Shown piece after piece: positions 10,178-27,319 of a DNA stretch of 64,000 nt (position 1 is its first letter; each line of letters starts with the position of its first letter). The notes beneath the pieces are model-generated. The model worked only from the letters and a program-made list of their open reading frames with translations. It was not told where the DNA came from and ran no database searches. The stretch lies in the IMG/VR virus record IMGVR_UViG_3300005326_000046, positions 16,004 through 80,003 of that record. One strand, written 5' to 3'. This DNA comes from a virus (lineage: Duplodnaviria > Caudoviricetes). The position numbers were made by a program, and so were the translations under genes.

Positions 10178-10937
10178 GATCAACGTTGGTGACCGTGTAG
10201 TCCTTGACAGCCACCACGGCGGACGAACCTGGGCAACAAGGTGTGGCGTCGTTATGGGTATTGCAGACGGTAGAGCTACGGTGCGATGGGGTGGCGAAAC
10301 AGAGAGTCACGATCATCCCTTGTCCATCCTTGTCGCGGTGACAGATCGAGTCCCCGAGCGCATTGGAGAATCGCCAATCAACAAGTTCGCGATTAATGGG
10401 CTGAAGACCATCAGTGAACGCATCCTCTCCATGTGGCAGCAGACGCTACCCGTCTCTTCGCCACCGCAGGCGCAACCCGAGATCATGGAGTGCCTTGAGG
10501 CGATATGGCGGGACAGGGACACGTGGAAGCGCGCTTGTCTTGAAGAGCGCGAGGTTGTTGCCGAGCTTGGTGCAGGTGATAATGCGCTGTCGTGGATCAA
10601 GGCATTGCGCCGGCAGAATGCCGCGCTGGTTGCAGAGAACAGCCGCCTAGAAAAGGAGTTGCACGACACACTCGCCGCGGTCAATTCGGCGCATCACCGC
10701 ATTGACGCCTTCTTGGTGAACGAGCGCAAGCTCATGGATCGCGTCGTCAAACTGTCCGACGACCTTGAGACGTTGCGAAGCATGAACAAGGTAGCGAACG
10801 AATGGATGTCTCATCGCAATCGAGAAGCAATGGACATTGTGCGAGAGTTGGCAAAGTGGACATGGCTACAGCCGGGCATGGCACGTCTGATAGGGCGGGC
10901 GCGCACACTGATTGAGAAGGAGAGGATGGCGAAATGA
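10170..10937 (+). CDS. SH3/KOW-like N-terminal domain plus coiled-coil protein
   Basis: INVGDRVVLD...GVVMGI...ATVRW, followed by a heptad-rich region. Confidence 0.75.
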   Translation: MRKINVGDRVVLDSHHGGRTWATRCGVVMGIADGRATVRWGGETESHDHPLSILVAVTDRVPERIGESPINKFAINGLKTISERILSMWQQTLPVSSPPQAQPEIMECLEAIWRDRDTWKRACLEEREVVAELGAGDNALSWIKALRRQNAALVAENSRLEKELHDTLAAVNSAHHRIDAFLVNERKLMDRVVKLSDDLETLRSMNKVANEWMSHRNREAMDIVRELAKWTWLQPGMARLIGRARTLIEKERMAK

Positions 10938-11158
10938 GCGACTGTGCAATATGTGGTACCGATTTGAGCAAAGACCTGTTCGCCAGCGTAACAGATGATT
11001 CTGTATGCTGTATATGCAAAGTGAAATACATTGGCGGCTTGTCATCGCGCGACAGGATTCCCGTGGTGCGTGCCAGCTTGGGTCTCAAGGATGGCGAATA
11101 CTTGGCGCAAGACAATGCGCAAGAAGCAGCGAGAATTCTCGGACGCCGGGGACGGTGA
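10934..11158 (+). CDS. Small zinc-finger protein
   Basis: CAIC...CCIC. Confidence 0.65.
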   Translation: MSDCAICGTDLSKDLFASVTDDSVCCICKVKYIGGLSSRDRIPVVRASLGLKDGEYLAQDNAQEAARILGRRGR

Positions 11159-11176
11159 TGATGTGTAAAGGAGAGC

Positions 11177-12892
11177 ATGATGAGCGACTTCGGGCCAGGT
11201 GATCGCGTGGTGTACGCCGGAAAGCTAGTTCCAGAATGGAAAGGGATGGTTGGAACGGTCTCGGAAATGTGGGATGGTGGCGATGGATGCTTGGTCATAT
11301 TTGACGACTACGGGGTCGGACGCTGGGGTATAGCATGCAAAAACCTTAGGCATCACACGGGGCACACGTTCCACGTCGGCGATCGCGTAAAGTACATTGG
11401 CGACAAGGTGAAATGGAAGGGACACACTGGCACGATAACGGTACTGCGCGGCAATGATAACGACGGACCGTATGTCGAGATAAAGTGGGATGACCCGCCG
11501 TACGGCTGCGACGCAACCGCCGCGCCCTACGAGAAGAACCTCATGCGCATCGACGAACCGCGCCCCTTCAAGGTCGGTGATCGTGTGCGGTACCGTGGCA
11601 CGTTCTCGTATGAATTGGAAGGGAGAATTGGAACGGTTGTAACCAGATGGGAAAATGGTGACGGTGCCAGAATTATATTCGATGGCGATACTAGAGAACA
11701 TTCCGTGGCATCCATAAGCATCGAGCACTACAAGGACCCTGGTCCGGCGTTCCATGTAGGCGATCGTGTCACGTGTGTTGGGACCTATCGCGCCAAGGAT
11801 AGCAAGAACGGAACGATCAAGCGGCTATGGGAGTCTGGCACGGGCGCAGATGTTCAGTTTGATGGCGACAAGTACACGATAGGGGCACGGTTCTGCGACC
11901 TTGCCCACTACAAGGACCCCGTGGCGAAGTTAGCGGTTGGTGATCGCGTGCGGTACGTGGGGCACGTGAAAGAGTGGTCGGGGTTTGTCGGCACGGTGAA
12001 GGGGTTCGACGCCTGGCATATTCACGTTTGGGTGAAGTGGGACGATGCGTCCTTCGGCCTCAACTCAATCATGAATGAGTACCTTGTGCCAGATAACAGC
12101 GAGCAGCCCGCCGCGCATCCACCATTCAAGCAGGGCGATCGCGTCAAGATCATGGATCCTGGTAGTCCATTCAATTTTCAACTTGGCACGGTGAGGTTCT
12201 TCAGCGACACGAAGGTATACGTCAGGCCAGACACAGCCAACATGGCCTATGGATTCCATGACTGCCACCTGATGCATCTTCCCGCGCACGTGAGCAACCA
12301 CCGGTGCACGATGGACTCCAGCGCGCAATACGTCGATAGGCGCGAGTTGCCAACTGAACACACTGTGACCGTTACCGTCAAGCCGTCGCCGTGGTTGCGC
12401 AAGGCTATTGACAACCTGGCGAAGAAGATGGACGCTGAGGTCAAGAAGGGGCTTGCCGGGCAGGTGGCAGACGCAGAGGCGGAGATGTGCGAGCTACGGA
12501 AGCGGGTTGAAGAGACACTTGCAGAGAACAACCGCCTGAATGCAGACTGCGACAAACGGCGCGGCGAGAACAAATACCTGAACCAGGAATGCAACCGCTG
12601 GCACGATCGGTTTTACGAAGCGCTTGACGAGCGCGACGCGCTGCGCGCCGAGAACGCGAAGCTGAAGGACGAAGCCAAGACAGACGAAGAGCGTATTGTC
12701 TATCTAACCAAGGCCCGCTCAGAGTTAGCTGATTCGTGGAGCAAAACTTGTAGGCGACTAGATCGTGCCATGCGCGTCGTAGAAGCCGTTGCGGACCTTC
12801 CGTCCGATGGCGGATTCGTGGTCTGGACAGACGCGGAGCGTGTCATCGAATCAGCGCGTGAAGTCATTGCGGCCAACGGGGATGTGTGCTAG
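11177..12892 (+). CDS. Protein with six tandem SH3/KOW-like (F-x-VGDRV-x-Y) repeats and C-terminal coiled coil
   Basis: Repeats FGPGDRVVY, FHVGDRVKY, FKVGDRVRY, FHVGDRVTC, LAVGDRVRY, FKQGDRVKI; SD AAGGAGAG. Confidence 0.85.
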   Translation: MMSDFGPGDRVVYAGKLVPEWKGMVGTVSEMWDGGDGCLVIFDDYGVGRWGIACKNLRHHTGHTFHVGDRVKYIGDKVKWKGHTGTITVLRGNDNDGPYVEIKWDDPPYGCDATAAPYEKNLMRIDEPRPFKVGDRVRYRGTFSYELEGRIGTVVTRWENGDGARIIFDGDTREHSVASISIEHYKDPGPAFHVGDRVTCVGTYRAKDSKNGTIKRLWESGTGADVQFDGDKYTIGARFCDLAHYKDPVAKLAVGDRVRYVGHVKEWSGFVGTVKGFDAWHIHVWVKWDDASFGLNSIMNEYLVPDNSEQPAAHPPFKQGDRVKIMDPGSPFNFQLGTVRFFSDTKVYVRPDTANMAYGFHDCHLMHLPAHVSNHRCTMDSSAQYVDRRELPTEHTVTVTVKPSPWLRKAIDNLAKKMDAEVKKGLAGQVADAEAEMCELRKRVEETLAENNRLNADCDKRRGENKYLNQECNRWHDRFYEALDERDALRAENAKLKDEAKTDEERIVYLTKARSELADSWSKTCRRLDRAMRVVEAVADLPSDGGFVVWTDAERVIESAREVIAANGDVC

Positions 12893-18651: not shown

Positions 18652-19347
18652 ATGGCAGTAAAGACACATGGTTATCGGCTGCACGTGGAGTTCATTACTC
18701 CCGTGCTTGGGACTCAGTCAACGCGTGAAGTAGCGACCGAGTTTATCGCCAAGAAGTCCGGCTTCGAGATCCCCCAGGATGAACAGGAAACACTCCCCGA
18801 AGCGCTGGAACGCGGAACCACCGTCTTTCACCGCAAAGACGACAAGCCGGTCTACTACGATTATCACATCCTCGGATTCCTGCGTGAAGCCGGATCTGTC
18901 CTCAATGGCAAGGTGACCGGTGGCGTCAAGAATCTCCGCAGTAAGGTTGAGAATAACGTCTTTGCGTTCCCCCGGCAGATTGAGCTACACGTGCCCGATG
19001 GAGCGGACTACGAGCCTTACAACGAGCGTGCGCTTCGAGCCAAGACGGCGCGGGGACCGCGCGTTACCCTCGTGCGATCCGAGCAGTTGCCAGAAGGCAC
19101 GTGGTTTGACGCCATGCTGGAAGTGATCGACGGCGAGATCACAGAGAACGTCCTGCGCGACTTGTTCGACTTCGGTTATTTGCGCGGCTTCGGTCAGTGG
19201 CGCACGGGTTGCTGGGGCCGGTTCGTGTACACGTTGACCAGCGACGAAGAGAAGCCAAAGGCCAAGGCAAAGAAGGTCGCGACGGATGATTCCGTCACGA
19301 CTATCTCGGGGATCCCCGTCATGCTGATGGAGGCACAACATGGATGA
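18652..19347 (+). CDS. Stand-alone Cas7-group RAMP-like protein (Vipr-like candidate RNA-guided effector)
   Basis: RAMP-type first strand YRLHVEFITPVLGT, internal ILGFLREA and RALRA motifs, C-terminal glycine-rich loop GYLRGFGQWRTGCWGRF; SD AAGGAG. No other cas genes in the window. Motif recognition only, no HMM run. Confidence 0.8.
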   Translation: MAVKTHGYRLHVEFITPVLGTQSTREVATEFIAKKSGFEIPQDEQETLPEALERGTTVFHRKDDKPVYYDYHILGFLREAGSVLNGKVTGGVKNLRSKVENNVFAFPRQIELHVPDGADYEPYNERALRAKTARGPRVTLVRSEQLPEGTWFDAMLEVIDGEITENVLRDLFDFGYLRGFGQWRTGCWGRFVYTLTSDEEKPKAKAKKVATDDSVTTISGIPVMLMEAQHG

Positions 19348-19597
19348 TGGTTCAGAATATGAATACGTTGATACGGTTCGAGTGCACTTTTATGTGATTG
19401 ATGACGAAGCGCGAGCATTGCGTAAGCTTGCCTATCTTGAATTGCGCACACCGCGCGACCAGGTGCGTTTCATGTTACGCCAGGAGCTTACGCGGCGCGG
19501 TTTGTTGCCGGTTGCGAAGGCCGCCGCGGATGACTCGACTACGACCAGCGCGGGCGTGCCCGTCATGGTGATGGAGATGAGCGATGCCGAAGTATGA
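19340..19597 (+). CDS. Ribbon-helix-helix-like small DNA-binding protein
   Basis: Strand VRVHFYV followed by helices EARALRKLAYLELRTPRDQVRFMLRQELTRRGLL; overlaps the RAMP gene stop. Confidence 0.6.
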   Translation: MDDGSEYEYVDTVRVHFYVIDDEARALRKLAYLELRTPRDQVRFMLRQELTRRGLLPVAKAAADDSTTTSAGVPVMVMEMSDAEV

Positions 19598-20279
19598 CAT
19601 TGGCAGCAAGGTGGCTTACAGGCACGAAGATGGCCGGCGCGTCGTCGGGCACGTGGTTGACTACTCGCCACATAGCGATCACTACACGATTCGCTTGCCA
19701 GAAGAACTGGTAACCGTCGACTCCGAGAACATCACTGCTGTGCCGAAGTACAACGTCGGCGACAAACTCAAGTACCGCAGTTCCGTAGGGTTCATAATTC
19801 CATGCACCGTGATTGCTGTCCACGAGCATGGTAAATTCGGACGCAAGTATGAGGTTCGGTTGGAAGGAAACCGGTGGCAGAATATCCCCATGCATCTTTG
19901 CGAAGAAGACATCGTAGACACACCAAGTGAAAACCCAGTGCCGCCTGTGGGCTCACGCGTCTTCTATCATGACTTCTCACATGCCGAGAGCGCGTGGAGC
20001 GGCAGGCTTGGTACTGTTGTTGGTCTTGCGGTGGGTGGTGTTCATGTGCAATTTGACGGCGAGAAAGACACGTGGAACTTGGAAACGGCCAAGGTGCACC
20101 TGGTTGACGACGCTTATGGATTGTTTGCGAACAACGACGCCCTCAAGTTAGCCAACAAGGAGATCGTTGTCCTCCGCGACGCGCTAAACTCCGCGAACAC
20201 TGAAGCAAACACGCTGCGCCGTTGTGTCGACAGAATTCATAGGCTTACCCATGAAGCACTGGGCCTAGATGATGACTAG
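19584..20279 (+). CDS. Three SH3/KOW-like repeats plus C-terminal coiled coil
   Basis: YDIGSKVAY, YNVGDKLKY, PPVGSRVFY; the stop codon abuts the pentamer array. Confidence 0.8.
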   Translation: MPKYDIGSKVAYRHEDGRRVVGHVVDYSPHSDHYTIRLPEELVTVDSENITAVPKYNVGDKLKYRSSVGFIIPCTVIAVHEHGKFGRKYEVRLEGNRWQNIPMHLCEEDIVDTPSENPVPPVGSRVFYHDFSHAESAWSGRLGTVVGLAVGGVHVQFDGEKDTWNLETAKVHLVDDAYGLFANNDALKLANKEIVVLRDALNSANTEANTLRRCVDRIHRLTHEALGLDDD

Positions 20280-21256
20280 GCATTGGCAGAGATCCGTCTT
20301 GCGACGCGCTGGCATAGCATGGCACGGTAACGCAACGGCGCCGCGTGGCGTCGCTCGGCAGTGGTAAAGTCAGGCGTAGCACAGTATCAGCATAGTACGG
20401 TCATGTGGAGCGGCGGCAAAGCGAAGTAAAGTCCCGCGGCGGCATGGTCTAGTCCAGTCGAGTCCCGCGCGGCAATGGCTTAGCGCAGCAGGGCGTTGGC
20501 ACAGCGACGTGTCGCAGCGCGATGGCGTGGCCTAGTGCAGTCGTGCAGTGGCACAGCTTGGCGAAGTCTCGTTTGGCACAGCAATGGCGAGGTATTGCGC
20601 GATTCGGCAAAGGCGAAGCGGTGTCCTGCACGGCAACAGTCTAGCGTGGAACAGTCAGGTATTGCCGGGTGTTGCGAGGCGTTGGCGAGGCGAGGCTTTG
20701 TGAGGCGTTGGTCCTGCATAGTTGGGTGATGCATTGGCAGGGTTCGGTCAGGCACTGCGCTGCGCTGGTAGTGCTCGGCAGTGTTAGGCATTGGCAAAGC
20801 GTTGTAGGCCGCTGTCCTGTCTCGTTCTGCATGGCGATGGTCAGGTGAGGCGCTCTAACGTGCCGCGGGGGCACGGCGCTGTTTTGCGGCCCTATGTTCT
20901 GCAATGGCGAAGTTCAGCCTTGTGCCGCGAAGGCATAGCCTGGCACAGTTCAGCATGGTAACGGTCTTGTTTGGCACACTGATGTCTAGCAACGGCCAAG
21001 CACAGCAAGGTCCGGCAATGGCATAGCCCAGTATGGCAGTGCGACGGCAAAGTTCTGCTTGCGCCGCAATGGCGAGGCATTGCCAAGCACAGTTTTGTCC
21101 GGCAATGGCAAAGCGTGGTTACGTTTGGTAATGGCATGGTGCAGCAAAGTAACGCATCGGTAAGGCCAAGTGACGTTTGGCGATGGTGTGGCATAGCTGC
21201 CTGCGGCAAAGTAACAGTGAGGTAAAGCTGAGTCATGCAGTGCAACGGTAAGTCCT
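20279..21256 (+). ncRNA. N-G-Y-N-N pentamer array, candidate guide-RNA (vrRNA-like) locus
   Basis: About 180 pentamers by hand parse (e.g. ggcga ggcga ggctt tgtga ggcgt t ggtcc tgcat agttg ggtga tgcat t). One extra nt recurs mostly every 26 nt. Only a handful of pentamers break the GY rule. No credible ORF. Confidence 0.85.
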
Positions 21257-21289: not shown

Positions 21290-21844
21290 ATGGCAAAACG
21301 GTGGTTCCACTGGAAGAAGTTAGGGCGATACGTCGAGATCGACACAACCCGCACGTGCAAGAACTGCGGCGCGGTGCATCCATACCTCGGAGGCGAATCG
21401 TACACGCTTCGTCAGTCTCTGGGCGCAAAGATCATCTGCCCAGTCTGCGACCACGAGTACGAGATGCGCACAAGCCAAGAGATTGTTCTGGGCCTTATCG
21501 AGCACATCGGGCACGTTGAGGCGGAGCGCGACTACTGGAAGAACTTGTGGTACAACGGCGGATACAAGAACCGGCCAGCACCGCGAGATAGGCCATGGGA
21601 CATCAAGGCCGTTGACGGCTCGCCAACCATCGTCTCAGGGCCGGCACTGTGTCCAAAGTGCGGCAAGCAGCAGGTTGAACTACACGCCGGTGTGCTGTAT
21701 CCTGGCAATGACCTTCCGCACATGGAGATTCGTTGTCCAGACTGCGGCCCGCTTCAGGCCAACCCCTACGAGCCGTCCGAGGATCCAATCAACAAGGATG
21801 CTCCACCGGTGAAGCCGTGGGCACCGCCGCAGGAGCAACTATGA
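21290..21844 (+). CDS. Multi-CxxC zinc-finger protein
   Basis: CKNC, CPVC, CPKC and CPDC pairs; SD AAGGGGG. Confidence 0.75.
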   Translation: MAKRWFHWKKLGRYVEIDTTRTCKNCGAVHPYLGGESYTLRQSLGAKIICPVCDHEYEMRTSQEIVLGLIEHIGHVEAERDYWKNLWYNGGYKNRPAPRDRPWDIKAVDGSPTIVSGPALCPKCGKQQVELHAGVLYPGNDLPHMEIRCPDCGPLQANPYEPSEDPINKDAPPVKPWAPPQEQL

Positions 21845-25305: not shown

Positions 25306-25560
25306 ATGCGCATCAGTCTAAGGTGGTGGAATGCACGTAAGGACACAGAAGAGCGGGTCGCGGCACTGCAAGAGCAAAATAGGATTCTACAGGAACGGAT
25401 TGATCGCCTTTTTGATCAGGAGCAAAAGTATCGCAGGCTGGCGCGTGCACTTGCTAGCATCATGATGCATGGTGAGATACGCGAAGAAGATGGACTTGTC
25501 AACGAGACCGTTGAGGTCCTTACTGGAGCGTCGCGTGGCACAACAACAAAAGCCGACTGA
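25306..25560 (+). CDS. Small coiled-coil protein
   Basis: ATG 25306 after GGGGGAATAGG. Confidence 0.55.
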   Translation: MRISLRWWNARKDTEERVAALQEQNRILQERIDRLFDQEQKYRRLARALASIMMHGEIREEDGLVNETVEVLTGASRGTTTKAD

Positions 25561-27319
25561 ACGCCCTATCCCAGCCAACCCGGAGGCGGAGGAAGCCGTA
25601 CTTGGTTCCGCCTTGCTTGACCCAGACGCGATCGTCATCTTGTCTGGCATCCTCAAGCGCGGCGACTTCTACCGTGAGAAAAACGGGTGGATCTATCAGG
25701 CAATGCTTGACCTCCACAACGAGGGCAAGCCGATTGACTTCGTTACCCTGGTTGACGTCCTGGAGCGCAACGACCAGCTTACACAGATAGGCGGCGCGAG
25801 TTATCTCACGGGCCTGTTGAACAAGGTTCCGTCTGCCATGAATGCCGAGCATTACGCGGGCATCGTCGCACGTGCCGCCACCTTGCGCAGACTCATCGGT
25901 GTTGCAGGCATAATTGCTAATCTTGCCTACGACGAAACGACACCAGCGACAGAGATTGTCGATAAGGCGGAAACGCTAATCCTCGGCATGTCTGAGCGTA
26001 CGAGCCGCAACGAGCCCACACCCATCGGTGCGGGGCTGCGGGCCGTGGTGGATCGTCTGGACTACATCCAGCGCCACGAAGGCGAGCTGTTGGGTGTGCC
26101 CACGGGATTCGCTCGCCTTGACGGCCTGGTGGGTGGCTTCCAGAAGTCTGACCTGATCGTCCTTGCGGCGCGGCCAGGCGAGGGTAAAAGCTCATTCGCC
26201 ATGAACATCAGCCTGAACGCGGCCAAGGACTACGGGCAGCGCGTCGGCGTGTTTAGCCTGGAGATGAGCAAGATCGAGCTGGCGCAGCGGATGCTCGCCA
26301 CAGAGAGCGGAATTGACCAGAAGATGCTGCGGCGGGGCGGACTGAGCCCAGACGAATGGGCGCTACTGATGGAGACGGCTGGACGCATGGCCGAACTACC
26401 GATTTACATTGACGATTCAGCCAGCCTATCAGCGACTGAGCTACGCAGCAAGGCGCGCAAGCTCCAGGCGGAGCACGGTCTTGACTTCGTGGTTGTTGAC
26501 TACTTGCAATTGATGACGGGGGACGCGCGGGCGACGAATCGGGTGCAAGAGATCGCGACGATCACGCGCGGACTCAAGGCGCTGGCGCGCGAGCTGGATG
26601 TGCCTGTGCTGGCACTGTCGCAGTTGTCGCGGGCGATTGAGACCCGTAGCGAGAAGACGCCAATGCTATCAGACCTACGGGAAAGCGGATGTTTGGCCGG
26701 CAGCAGCATGATCGAGATAGCTGGTACGGCGTGGCCGGAACGAATTGACTCTCTTGTTGGGCGAGACAACCTGTATGTCGGGGCCATGAACCTTGCCAGT
26801 AGGAAGGTTGAGGCAAGTAAAGCCGGTAGCATATTTTACTCTGGCGTAAAGCCGCTTTATCTACTACGGCTTTCCAGCGACCTTATGATACGGGCAACAG
26901 CCAACCACAAGTTTTTCGTCAAGGGAGCGGGATGGAAACGACTTGACGCTTTGACTTGCGATGATGAGTTGGCCGTCAGAAACGAGCGCTTGGCGATTTG
27001 TGACGTGTCGTGGGCGCGGTTTGTTTCGCGCGAGTATGCAGGAACCGGAAAGACGTATGACATAACCGTGCCATGTTACAGCAACTTTGTTGCCAATGGG
27101 ATCATCTGTCACAACAGTATCGAACAAGATAGTGATATTGTCATGTTTATTAAGAAGCAAGACGCGGACGCCGCATCAGGCGGCTTGGCGAACGAGGATC
27201 TAGTGCGTATCGTCATCGGCAAGCACCGCAATGGGCCTACGGGCTCGTTTCCCCTCTTCTTCGACCGCAAGCGCACGCGGTTCCTGGAGCTTGAGACGGT
27301 GGAGAAGCCGCCGTATTGA
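25469..27319 (+). CDS. dnaB: Replicative DNA helicase DnaB containing a mini-intein
   Basis: EAEEAVLGS, TGFARLD, LAARPGEGKS, FSLEMS, VDYLQL, LSQLSR, SDLRESG/SIEQD, KHRNGPTG. Confidence 0.97.
   Translation: MVRYAKKMDLSTRPLRSLLERRVAQQQKPTERPIPANPEAEEAVLGSALLDPDAIVILSGILKRGDFYREKNGWIYQAMLDLHNEGKPIDFVTLVDVLERNDQLTQIGGASYLTGLLNKVPSAMNAEHYAGIVARAATLRRLIGVAGIIANLAYDETTPATEIVDKAETLILGMSERTSRNEPTPIGAGLRAVVDRLDYIQRHEGELLGVPTGFARLDGLVGGFQKSDLIVLAARPGEGKSSFAMNISLNAAKDYGQRVGVFSLEMSKIELAQRMLATESGIDQKMLRRGGLSPDEWALLMETAGRMAELPIYIDDSASLSATELRSKARKLQAEHGLDFVVVDYLQLMTGDARATNRVQEIATITRGLKALARELDVPVLALSQLSRAIETRSEKTPMLSDLRESGCLAGSSMIEIAGTAWPERIDSLVGRDNLYVGAMNLASRKVEASKAGSIFYSGVKPLYLLRLSSDLMIRATANHKFFVKGAGWKRLDALTCDDELAVRNERLAICDVSWARFVSREYAGTGKTYDITVPCYSNFVANGIICHNSIEQDSDIVMFIKKQDADAASGGLANEDLVRIVIGKHRNGPTGSFPLFFDRKRTRFLELETVEKPPY
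26690..27115 (+). mobile_element. Mini-intein (142 aa, no homing endonuclease) at the RESG/SIEQD site
   Basis: Begins CLAG, block B TANHKF, block F/G TYDITVP..NFVANGIICHN, followed by Ser. Confidence 0.95.

What the first reader, a model, noticed from the sequence alone, without database searches (positions are those of the whole stretch)
20285..21256. Decoding hypothesis: NN pairs specify a gapped target (NN-x-NN-x), possibly skipping codon wobble positions
Concatenated NNs include 20389-20475 AT AC CA GG GG / AA GA AA CC GG / AT CT CC CG CC GC AA and 20550-20584 AC TT GA CT TT AC AA. By my hand count TA occurs only 2 times and TG 3 times among about 180 NN slots (about 11 each if uniform). 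That is what codon positions 1-2 of a sense strand would give, since TAx and TGx are stop/Tyr/Cys/Trp. If so, the guide would ignore synonymous escape mutations. My recollection is that VIPR targets skip every third base. The wobble link is my inference, and the depletion could also reflect constraints on the RNA itself. I did not find a self-target by eye, but I did not search exhaustively.
Basis: inference. Interest (0 to 1): 0.8.

Follow-up and report, generated by a model that had tools for sequence, protein, structure and literature searches.

The report
Phage VIPR guide array, decoding unverified

Summary
The repeat is real. Window 20285-21256 (+) holds 188 units of x-G-Y-N-N in 34 blocks, typically four pentamers plus one hexamer (about 26 nt). 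It lies downstream of a 231-aa gene (18652-19347) whose model has a Cas7/Csm3-type RAMP fold. 57 related loci carry the same kind of array beside the homologous gene.

This matches VIPR (bioRxiv 10.64898/2026.04.26.720920), including its "staggered" arrays and "YNNNG" repeat variant. The NN-x rule with the wobble base skipped is already published. This scan has noted the same idea in at least 10 other genomes.

The TA/TG argument is weak:
- TG (3) equals the expectation from a T-poor first and G-poor second position (3.2).
- TA is 4 against 8.8 expected (P 0.06).
- N1 and N2 are independent in the window (P 0.44).
- Across the family the biases match plain genomic dinucleotide bias as well as codon positions 1-2.

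Gapped searches with skips 0-3 and shuffled controls gave chance-level hits only. They covered the phage genome, 1.46 Mb of related loci and 401 Anaerolineae-class genomes. Exact-pattern scans of IMG/VR and JGI metagenomes also found nothing real.

The base before G-Y is as variable as NN, so each unit may carry three informative bases.

The parts
18652..19347 (+). vipr-like gene: 231-aa Cas7-group RAMP protein (P0002)
   Evidence: More than 130 unnamed metagenomic homologs at 50-63% identity. AF2 model built on alignment A1 has pLDDT 80. Top structural matches are Csm3, Cmr4 and type VII Cas7: Z 12.4 (9g9a_D, 6ae2_B) and Foldseek E 8e-8. The glycine-rich loop GFGQWRTGCWGRF matches RAMP G-loops (E 3e-5 to Csm4, 5.5e-5 to type VII Cas7).
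19340..19597 (+). 85-aa ORF overlapping the vipr stop; possible accessory gene
   Evidence: ORF list. No Pfam or PHROG hit. No homolog in 98 related loci. Called as a gene in L099 and L100.
19584..20279 (+). 231-aa ORF (P0001) ending 5 nt before the array; possible accessory gene
   Evidence: ORF and translation. No Pfam or PHROG hit. No homolog in 98 related loci.
20285..21256 (+). vrRNA-type array: 188 units x-G-Y-N-N in 34 blocks. A typical block is four pentamers plus one hexamer (26 nt). It starts with GGC and ends xGC-R-W-Y.
   Evidence: Segmentation. The same grammar appears in 57 arrays beside homologous RAMP genes. No Rfam family matches.
20859..20885 (+). GC-rich hairpin followed by TGTTTT inside the array, in a stretch of irregular units
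   Evidence: Terminator-like site. Irregular units at 20854-20899.

Best explanation
Window 18652-21256 is a phage VIPR-type locus. A Cas7-like Vipr protein is encoded upstream of a roughly 970-nt array that is most likely transcribed on the + strand. The array is likely cut or read as about 34 short guides, one per 26-nt block, matching the 'staggered' architecture of the VIPR preprint.

**Proposed mechanism (inferred).** Vipr protomers would bind one five-base unit each. They would hold G-Y and present the variable bases, so that five guide bases correspond to three target bases. A guide would bind double-stranded DNA of a competing phage, prophage or satellite and silence it.

**Shown here:** the repeat grammar, the RAMP fold and G-loop, conservation of gene plus array in 57 loci, fast change and cassette-like replacement of the variable positions, and absence of self-targets.

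**Inferred from the literature, not shown here:** transcription and processing, DNA binding, the one-base skip and its wobble phase.

The TA/TG shortage is not evidence for the rule, because single-position composition and ordinary dinucleotide bias account for it.
For: **Array and protein.**
- Array grammar.
- RAMP fold and G-loop.
- Phage context (portal, terminase, DnaB).
- The same array type sits directly after the homologous gene in IMG/VR and GTDB loci.
- The 26-nt block profile is conserved over 243 blocks.

**Turnover of variable positions.**
- L085 against L016: G changes 3%, while x, Y, N1 and N2 change 20-28%; the vipr gene differs by 6%.
- L060 against L061: vipr is 100% identical and the arrays are identical except that two adjacent blocks are replaced wholesale.

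**Composition and self-targeting.**
- Among six codon-phase models, the two in which the skipped base is the wobble position fit the window's internal NN best (-499.7 and -501.2, against -509.7 to -524.5).
- No self-target above shuffled controls, as reported for VIPR.

**Published rule and architecture:** bioRxiv 10.64898/2026.04.26.720920 and 10.64898/2026.04.26.720927.
Against: - A uniform composition model fits the internal NN as well as the codon 1-2 model.
- The NN interaction pattern equals generic genomic dinucleotide bias.
- Guides of five units give only 10 read bases under the NN-x rule. That is little specificity for a genome-scale search.
- The base before G-Y is hypervariable here, unlike the fixed G of the characterised type II systems.
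- Sequence similarity to the solved SUSP1 Vipr is not significant (36pp_D, E 0.61).
- The closest solved folds are RNA-targeting Cas7 proteins.
Confidence: 0.7

Rival explanations
1. **Contiguous-triplet reading.** In this family the unit is G-Y-N-N-N and all three variable bases pair with the target. A five-unit block would then read 15 contiguous target bases (five guide bases to three target bases, none skipped), and the wobble base would be read rather than ignored.
For: - The base before G-Y is as variable as N1 and N2 in the 26-nt block profile.
- It changes as often between related arrays: 25% against 24-28%.
- It is replaced together with NN in the L060/L061 cassette swap.
- It is statistically coupled to the next unit's N1 although G-Y lies between them. 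Chi is 29 against 8 in permutations, z about 6, 0 of 300 permutations reach it, stratified by array and by Y. Five of the six other non-adjacent pairs tested there are clearly uncoupled (z -0.3 to 1.2); N2 to next N1 is marginal (z 1.4, 27 of 300).
- Split-half reproducibility of that coupling is r 0.49, against 0.19 for N2 to next N1.
- Ten read bases per block seems too few for specificity.
Against: - The coupling is weaker than for truly adjacent bases and matches genomic dinucleotide bias only moderately (r 0.53-0.56).
- N3 composition (A/G-rich, C-poor) does not resemble third codon positions of this phage.
- N3 matched the skipped base at chance level (26%) in the chance-level hits.
- The characterised type II system extrudes the skip base into a protein pocket.
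Confidence: 0.2
2. **One long filament RNA.** The array is not a set of independent short guides. The extra base every five or six units adjusts the register once per helical turn, and the RNA reads one long target or acts as a scaffold or decoy for Vipr proteins.
For: - Block sizes of 5 and 6 units dominate the family (255 and 242 blocks).
- The SUSP1 filament has 5 (DNA-bound) or 6 (RNA-only) subunits per turn.
- No tail or ribozyme separates the blocks.
- The third VIPR preprint reports satellite-encoded standalone vrRNAs that redirect VIPR to decoy sites.
Against: - The preprint's legend for staggered arrays describes individually processed vrRNAs that share one nucleotide.
- Guide turnover in L060/L061 respects block boundaries.
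- The array sits beside its own vipr gene.
Confidence: 0.07
3. **RNA targeting.** The system targets RNA rather than DNA, like the type III and type VII Cas7 proteins that are its closest solved structural relatives.
For: Top structural matches are Csm3, Cmr4 and type VII Cas7, which bind crRNA and target RNA.
Against: Published VIPR systems bind double-stranded DNA and repress from either strand. No nuclease or effector domain was found next to the gene. The window's internal NN fit both the sense and the antisense wobble-skip phases.
Confidence: 0.03

Closest known systems
VIPR systems (Vipr RAMP protein + vrRNA + vap), bioRxiv 10.64898/2026.04.26.720920; type II of Escherichia phage SUSP1 and a Pseudomonas fulva prophage are the characterised members
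   Same: Phage-borne. A solitary Cas7-like RAMP gene with no CRISPR array or other cas genes. An adjacent non-coding tract of five-base units with conserved G and pyrimidine and hypervariable bases. No self-targets. The proposed NN-x rule with wobble skipping is the published rule.
   Different: - Units are x-G-Y-N-N with x variable, not GGY-NN.
- There is no invariant 3' tail or pseudoknot.
- Runs are 5-6 units long instead of 9-16.
- Two unrelated ORFs lie between vipr and the array, with no recognisable vap.
- Sequence similarity to SUSP1 Vipr (PDB 36pp) is not significant (E 0.61).
'Staggered vrRNA arrays' and 'YNNNG' repeat variants mentioned in the same preprint (fig. S18 legend and type-classification methods)
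   Same: Back-to-back guides with no spacer or tail and a one-base register change at each boundary. The consensus has three variable positions per pentamer.
   Different: Only the legend and methods text could be read. The figure, the type assignment and any target rule for this variant were not available, so equivalence is by description only.
Class 1 CRISPR Cas7 backbone filaments (Csm3, Cmr4, type VII Cas7)
   Same: RRM core, glycine-rich loop and a long beta-hairpin. One protomer binds per fixed number of guide bases, with periodic base flipping.
   Different: No CRISPR repeats, no Cas5, Cas6, Cas10 or Cas3, a five-base rather than six-base period, and a guide built from micro-repeats instead of an acquired spacer.

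Membership tests
VIPR system | Vipr protein with RAMP (RRM-core) fold | tested here: met
   AF2 model pLDDT 80. Csm3, Cmr4 and type VII Cas7 are the top matches: Z 12.4 with rmsd 3.8 over 154-161 residues, Foldseek E 8e-8.
VIPR system | Glycine-rich loop of RAMPs | tested here: met
   Invariant G175, G179, W183 and G189 in 48 homologs. The C-terminal profile matches Csm4 and type VII Cas7 G-loops at E 3e-5 and 5.5e-5.
VIPR system | Thumb domain that flips the conserved repeat bases | tested here: inconclusive
   The model has a long beta-hairpin at residues 121-146 in the position of a Cas7 thumb. I made no residue-level comparison with SUSP1 Vipr.
VIPR system | Sequence-level membership in the Vipr family (PSI-BLAST family of X1U2U4; SUSP1 Vipr, PDB 36pp) | tested here: inconclusive
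   Profile A1 against 36pp_D gives E 0.61 over the G-loop region only. The match is lost with the C-terminal profile. The preprint's family list was not available.
VIPR system | Tandem five-base repeats with conserved GGY (or related consensus) alternating with hypervariable bases, next to vipr | tested here: met
   188 units with G in 182 and Y in 185. The same holds in 57 related loci. Variable positions change 20-28% while G changes 3%.
VIPR system | Non-CRISPR, minimal, mostly viral locus | tested here: met
   The 80-kb virus record carries portal, terminase and DnaB genes. No CRISPR-like repeat was found and no cas domains in neighbouring genes.
VIPR system | Accessory vap gene | tested here: inconclusive
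   Two ORFs lie between vipr and the array. They have no family hit and no homolog in 98 related loci.
VIPR system | vrRNA expressed and bound by Vipr | not testable with these tools
No RNA data were available.
VIPR system | Targets follow the one-base skip rule, with the skip base at the wobble position | tested here: inconclusive
   No target was found above chance in the own genome, 1.46 Mb of related loci, IMG/VR, JGI metagenomes or 401 Anaerolineae-class genomes.
Staggered vrRNA array (VIPR preprint, fig. S18) | Adjacent vrRNAs abut with a one-nucleotide register relation and no tail between them | tested here: met
   32 of 34 blocks end in a hexamer that shifts the pentamer register by +1. 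The figure itself could not be seen, so the match is to the legend text.

The most novel reading that the evidence does not exclude
In this widespread VIPR variant (G-Y-N-N-N units in 26-nt blocks), the base that type II systems fix as G has become a third reading position. Each five-unit guide would then pair with 15 contiguous target bases, keeping five guide bases per three target bases but skipping none. The wobble-skipping logic would not apply to this branch, and short one-turn guides would still be specific.
Probability: 0.2. Interest if true: 0.6.

Novelty: new member of a known kind. Interest (0 to 1): 0.3.

Why it matters
The decoding rule itself is not new. It was published in 2026 with biochemical, structural and in vivo support.

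This locus adds an example from an uncultured 80-kb phage. Its relatives lie in Chloroflexota and Acidobacteriota metagenome bins, and it represents the compact staggered form of the array. That form has very short guides and a third variable base per unit, and it has not been characterised experimentally.

If the third base is read, the VIPR code is not uniform across types. Target prediction for this large environmental branch would then need a different rule.

Tried and rejected
**Structure prediction**
- A single-sequence fold of the RAMP protein failed (pLDDT 31). It was redone with an alignment.

**Search for sister phages**
- blastn of the vipr neighbourhood against INPHARED phages found no match.
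- The portal protein has only one 52%-identity relative in IMG/VR, so sister phages are not available.
- L099 and L100 are the same phage with an identical array, so they give no micro-evolution data.

**Gapped searches in the own genome**
- Own genome by block, skips 0-3: equal to shuffled NN.
- Best own-genome hits lie at chance E-values and in random codon phase.
- Peptide-level decoding against the own proteome: 1 hit against 3.6 expected.

**Gapped searches in the 1.46-Mb set of related loci**
- Blocks of 7 or more units: no excess, and the phase bias equals that of shuffles.
- Adjacent-block distance histogram: no peak for any skip.
- Triplet decoding with skips 0-3: no excess.
- vipr genes only: 27 hits against about 37 in shuffles.
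- Blocks of 9 or more units at relaxed identity: nothing above chance.

**Public collections**
- IMG/VR exact scans gave 0 hits: two 9-unit NN-x patterns, three 20-base triplet-decoded patterns and one 10-unit block from L012.
- The JGI metagenome scan of the 9-unit block at 20638 gave two unrelated hits. One lies in a MEDS-domain gene beside rho, with the skip at codon position 1. The other lies in a frame with CoA-transferase-like sequence (by eye, not searched). I judged both to be chance.
- 401 genomes of the class of an Anaerolinea bin, up to 1 mismatch: 1 hit against 2 for the reversed control pattern, and 0 hits for the second block.

**Other checks**
- Stop-codon depletion in triplets: TAA 0.50 and TAG 0.48 of expectation, but TGA 1.06. 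The genomic background gives 0.79, 0.54 and 1.06, so I rejected this as a codon signature.
- Rfam found no family and no hammerhead.
- A direct alignment to SUSP1 Vipr, to check the G1-binding residue, could not be obtained.

Full report
**What is in the sequence**

Window 20285-21256 (+) is non-coding and has a five-base period. Autocorrelation is 0.38 at lag 5 and 0.36 at lag 10, against about 0.22 elsewhere. A dynamic-programming segmentation gives 188 units of the form x-G-Y-N-N, with G in 182 units and a pyrimidine in 185.

The units fall into 34 blocks, and 19 of them have five units. A typical block is four pentamers followed by one hexamer. The block is therefore 26 nt long and the register slips by +1 at each boundary. 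Blocks begin with GGC (23 of 34). Hexamers end xGC-R-W-Y, with extra base T in 19 and C in 10.

**Context**

The window belongs to an 80,003-bp virus record that carries portal, large terminase and an intein-bearing DnaB.

The gene at 18652-19347 lies upstream on the same strand. It encodes a 231-aa protein with more than 130 unnamed metagenomic homologs. With an alignment it folds confidently (pLDDT 80). Its best structural matches are Cas7-group RAMPs: Csm3 at Z 12.4 and type VII Cas7 at Foldseek E 8e-8. Its glycine-rich loop matches RAMP G-loops by profile.

Two ORFs of 85 and 231 aa sit between this gene and the array. They have no family hits and no homologs in related loci.

**Family**

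Searches with the RAMP alignment returned 80 IMG/VR loci and 18 genome loci. The closest genome loci are in Anaerolinea, Chloroflexota and Blastocatellia bins. In 57 distinct loci my detector finds the same kind of array, usually starting within about 100 nt of the gene's end.

Over 243 blocks of 26 nt the profile is GGC, then A-rich NN, then three internal units, then xGC-R-A-N. The base before each internal G-Y is as variable as N1 and N2. The real unit is therefore G-Y-N-N-N.

Two comparisons between related arrays:
- L085 and L016: vipr is 94% identical. G changes in 3% of units, while x, Y, N1 and N2 change in 20-28%.
- L060 and L061: vipr is identical and the arrays are identical except that two adjacent blocks are replaced wholesale. 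The handles are kept and the variable bases are new, which looks like cassette-style guide turnover.

**What is known**

This matches VIPR as described in bioRxiv 10.64898/2026.04.26.720920.
- VIPR is a solitary phage RAMP with vrRNAs made of GGY/NN pentamers.
- NN pairs read double-stranded DNA with one skipped base per unit.
- The skip base falls overwhelmingly on the wobble position, which the authors discuss as a counter to synonymous escape.
- No self-targets are found.
- The preprint also lists 'staggered arrays' whose vrRNAs share one nucleotide, and alternative repeats including YNNNG.

The structural preprint 10.64898/2026.04.26.720927 shows one protomer per repeat. G1, G2 and Y3 are sequestered and the target's skip base is extruded into a pocket.

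The scan's earlier notes show the same idea raised for at least ten other genomes.

- TG (3) equals the expectation from N1 and N2 composition (3.2).
- TA is 4 against 8.8 expected (P 0.06).
- N1 and N2 are statistically independent in the window (P 0.44).
- CG (3) and GG (6) are as rare as TG.
- With all units, codon positions 1-2 of this phage's ORFs fit NN best (-506.0, against -518.5 uniform and -526.0 genomic). That margin comes from the A-rich first and last units of each block, which are part of the array's grammar.
- For the 120 strictly internal units, the codon 1-2 model (-499.7) equals the uniform model (-499.1). The two wobble-skip phases do beat the other four phases by 8 to 25 log units.
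- Across the family (3663 units), the marginal-corrected dinucleotide pattern correlates at r = 0.88 with codon positions 1-2 and equally at r = 0.88 with plain genomic dinucleotides.
- The apparent stop-codon signal (TAA 0.50, TAG 0.48, TGA 1.06 of expectation) tracks the genomic background (0.79, 0.54, 1.06).

The composition is compatible with the rule, but it does not single it out.

**Target searches**

No skip length gave an excess over shuffled controls, and no real target appeared in any database I could search.
- Own genome, by block, skips 0-3: no excess over shuffled NN. The best hits are at chance. Peptide-level decoding gives 1 hit against 3.6 expected.
- The 1.46-Mb set of related loci: no excess for long blocks, for adjacent-block pairs at any spacing, for triplet decoding, within vipr genes, or at relaxed identity.
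- Shuffled NN hits already favour the wobble phase about 2:1. Codon phase must therefore always be judged against shuffles.
- Exact scans of IMG/VR found nothing.
- The JGI metagenome scan gave two unrelated chromosomal hits that I judged to be chance.
- 401 genomes of the candidate host class gave no more hits than the reversed control pattern.
- No sister phage is available, and other assemblies of this phage carry an identical array.

**An unexplained signal**

The base before G-Y (N3) is coupled to the next unit's N1, although G-Y separates them in the array. Chi is 29 against about 8 in permutations (z about 6), and 0 of 300 permutations reach it. The test is stratified by array and by Y.

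Six other non-adjacent pairs were tested in the same way. Five are clearly uncoupled, and N2 to next N1 is marginal. Split halves of the family reproduce the N3-N1 pattern (r 0.49).

This is what contiguous source triplets would give. N3 is also hypervariable and five-unit guides are short. This leaves open a reading in which this branch reads three bases per unit and skips none. I put that at about 20%.

**Verdict**

The feature is real and is a new member of a known kind, a VIPR staggered array. The decoding hypothesis is already published and remains the best prior. This array neither confirms nor refutes it. The TA/TG argument should not be counted as support.

Noticed in passing
window 25469-27319 (+): The DnaB-like replicative helicase carries an intein (Pfam Intein_splicing within DnaB_C).
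   Followed up: no
window 20859-20885 (+): A GC-rich 6-bp hairpin followed by TGTTTT lies inside the array, in the only stretch where several units lose the G-Y handle (20854-20899). It may end one transcript or split the array in two.
   Followed up: partly
window 21290-21844 (+): The first gene after the array encodes a 184-aa protein with two zinc-ribbon motifs (weak Lar restriction-alleviation and DUF7479 hits, below Pfam cut-offs). It has no homolog in the 98 related loci.
   Followed up: partly
L060:1069-1543 vs L061:981-1450: Two IMG/VR phages have identical vipr genes and arrays that are identical except for two adjacent blocks replaced wholesale, including a 5-nt indel. This is a natural example of guide turnover.
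   Followed up: partly
L039:12085-12189 (+): A separate in-register run of 21 canonical GGY-NN units lies about 1.5 kb downstream of that locus's staggered array (10572-10813). It looks like a classical long vrRNA beside a staggered array. No target was found in the local set.
   Followed up: partly
L043:9100-9916 and 10626-11203; L065:9627-9869 and 10667-10965: Some relatives carry arrays on both sides of the vipr gene.
   Followed up: no
family-wide, 57 arrays: Block sizes of 5 and 6 units dominate (255 and 242 blocks). These equal the subunits per helical turn reported for the DNA-bound (5) and RNA-only (6) SUSP1 filament. This may be a coincidence.
   Followed up: no
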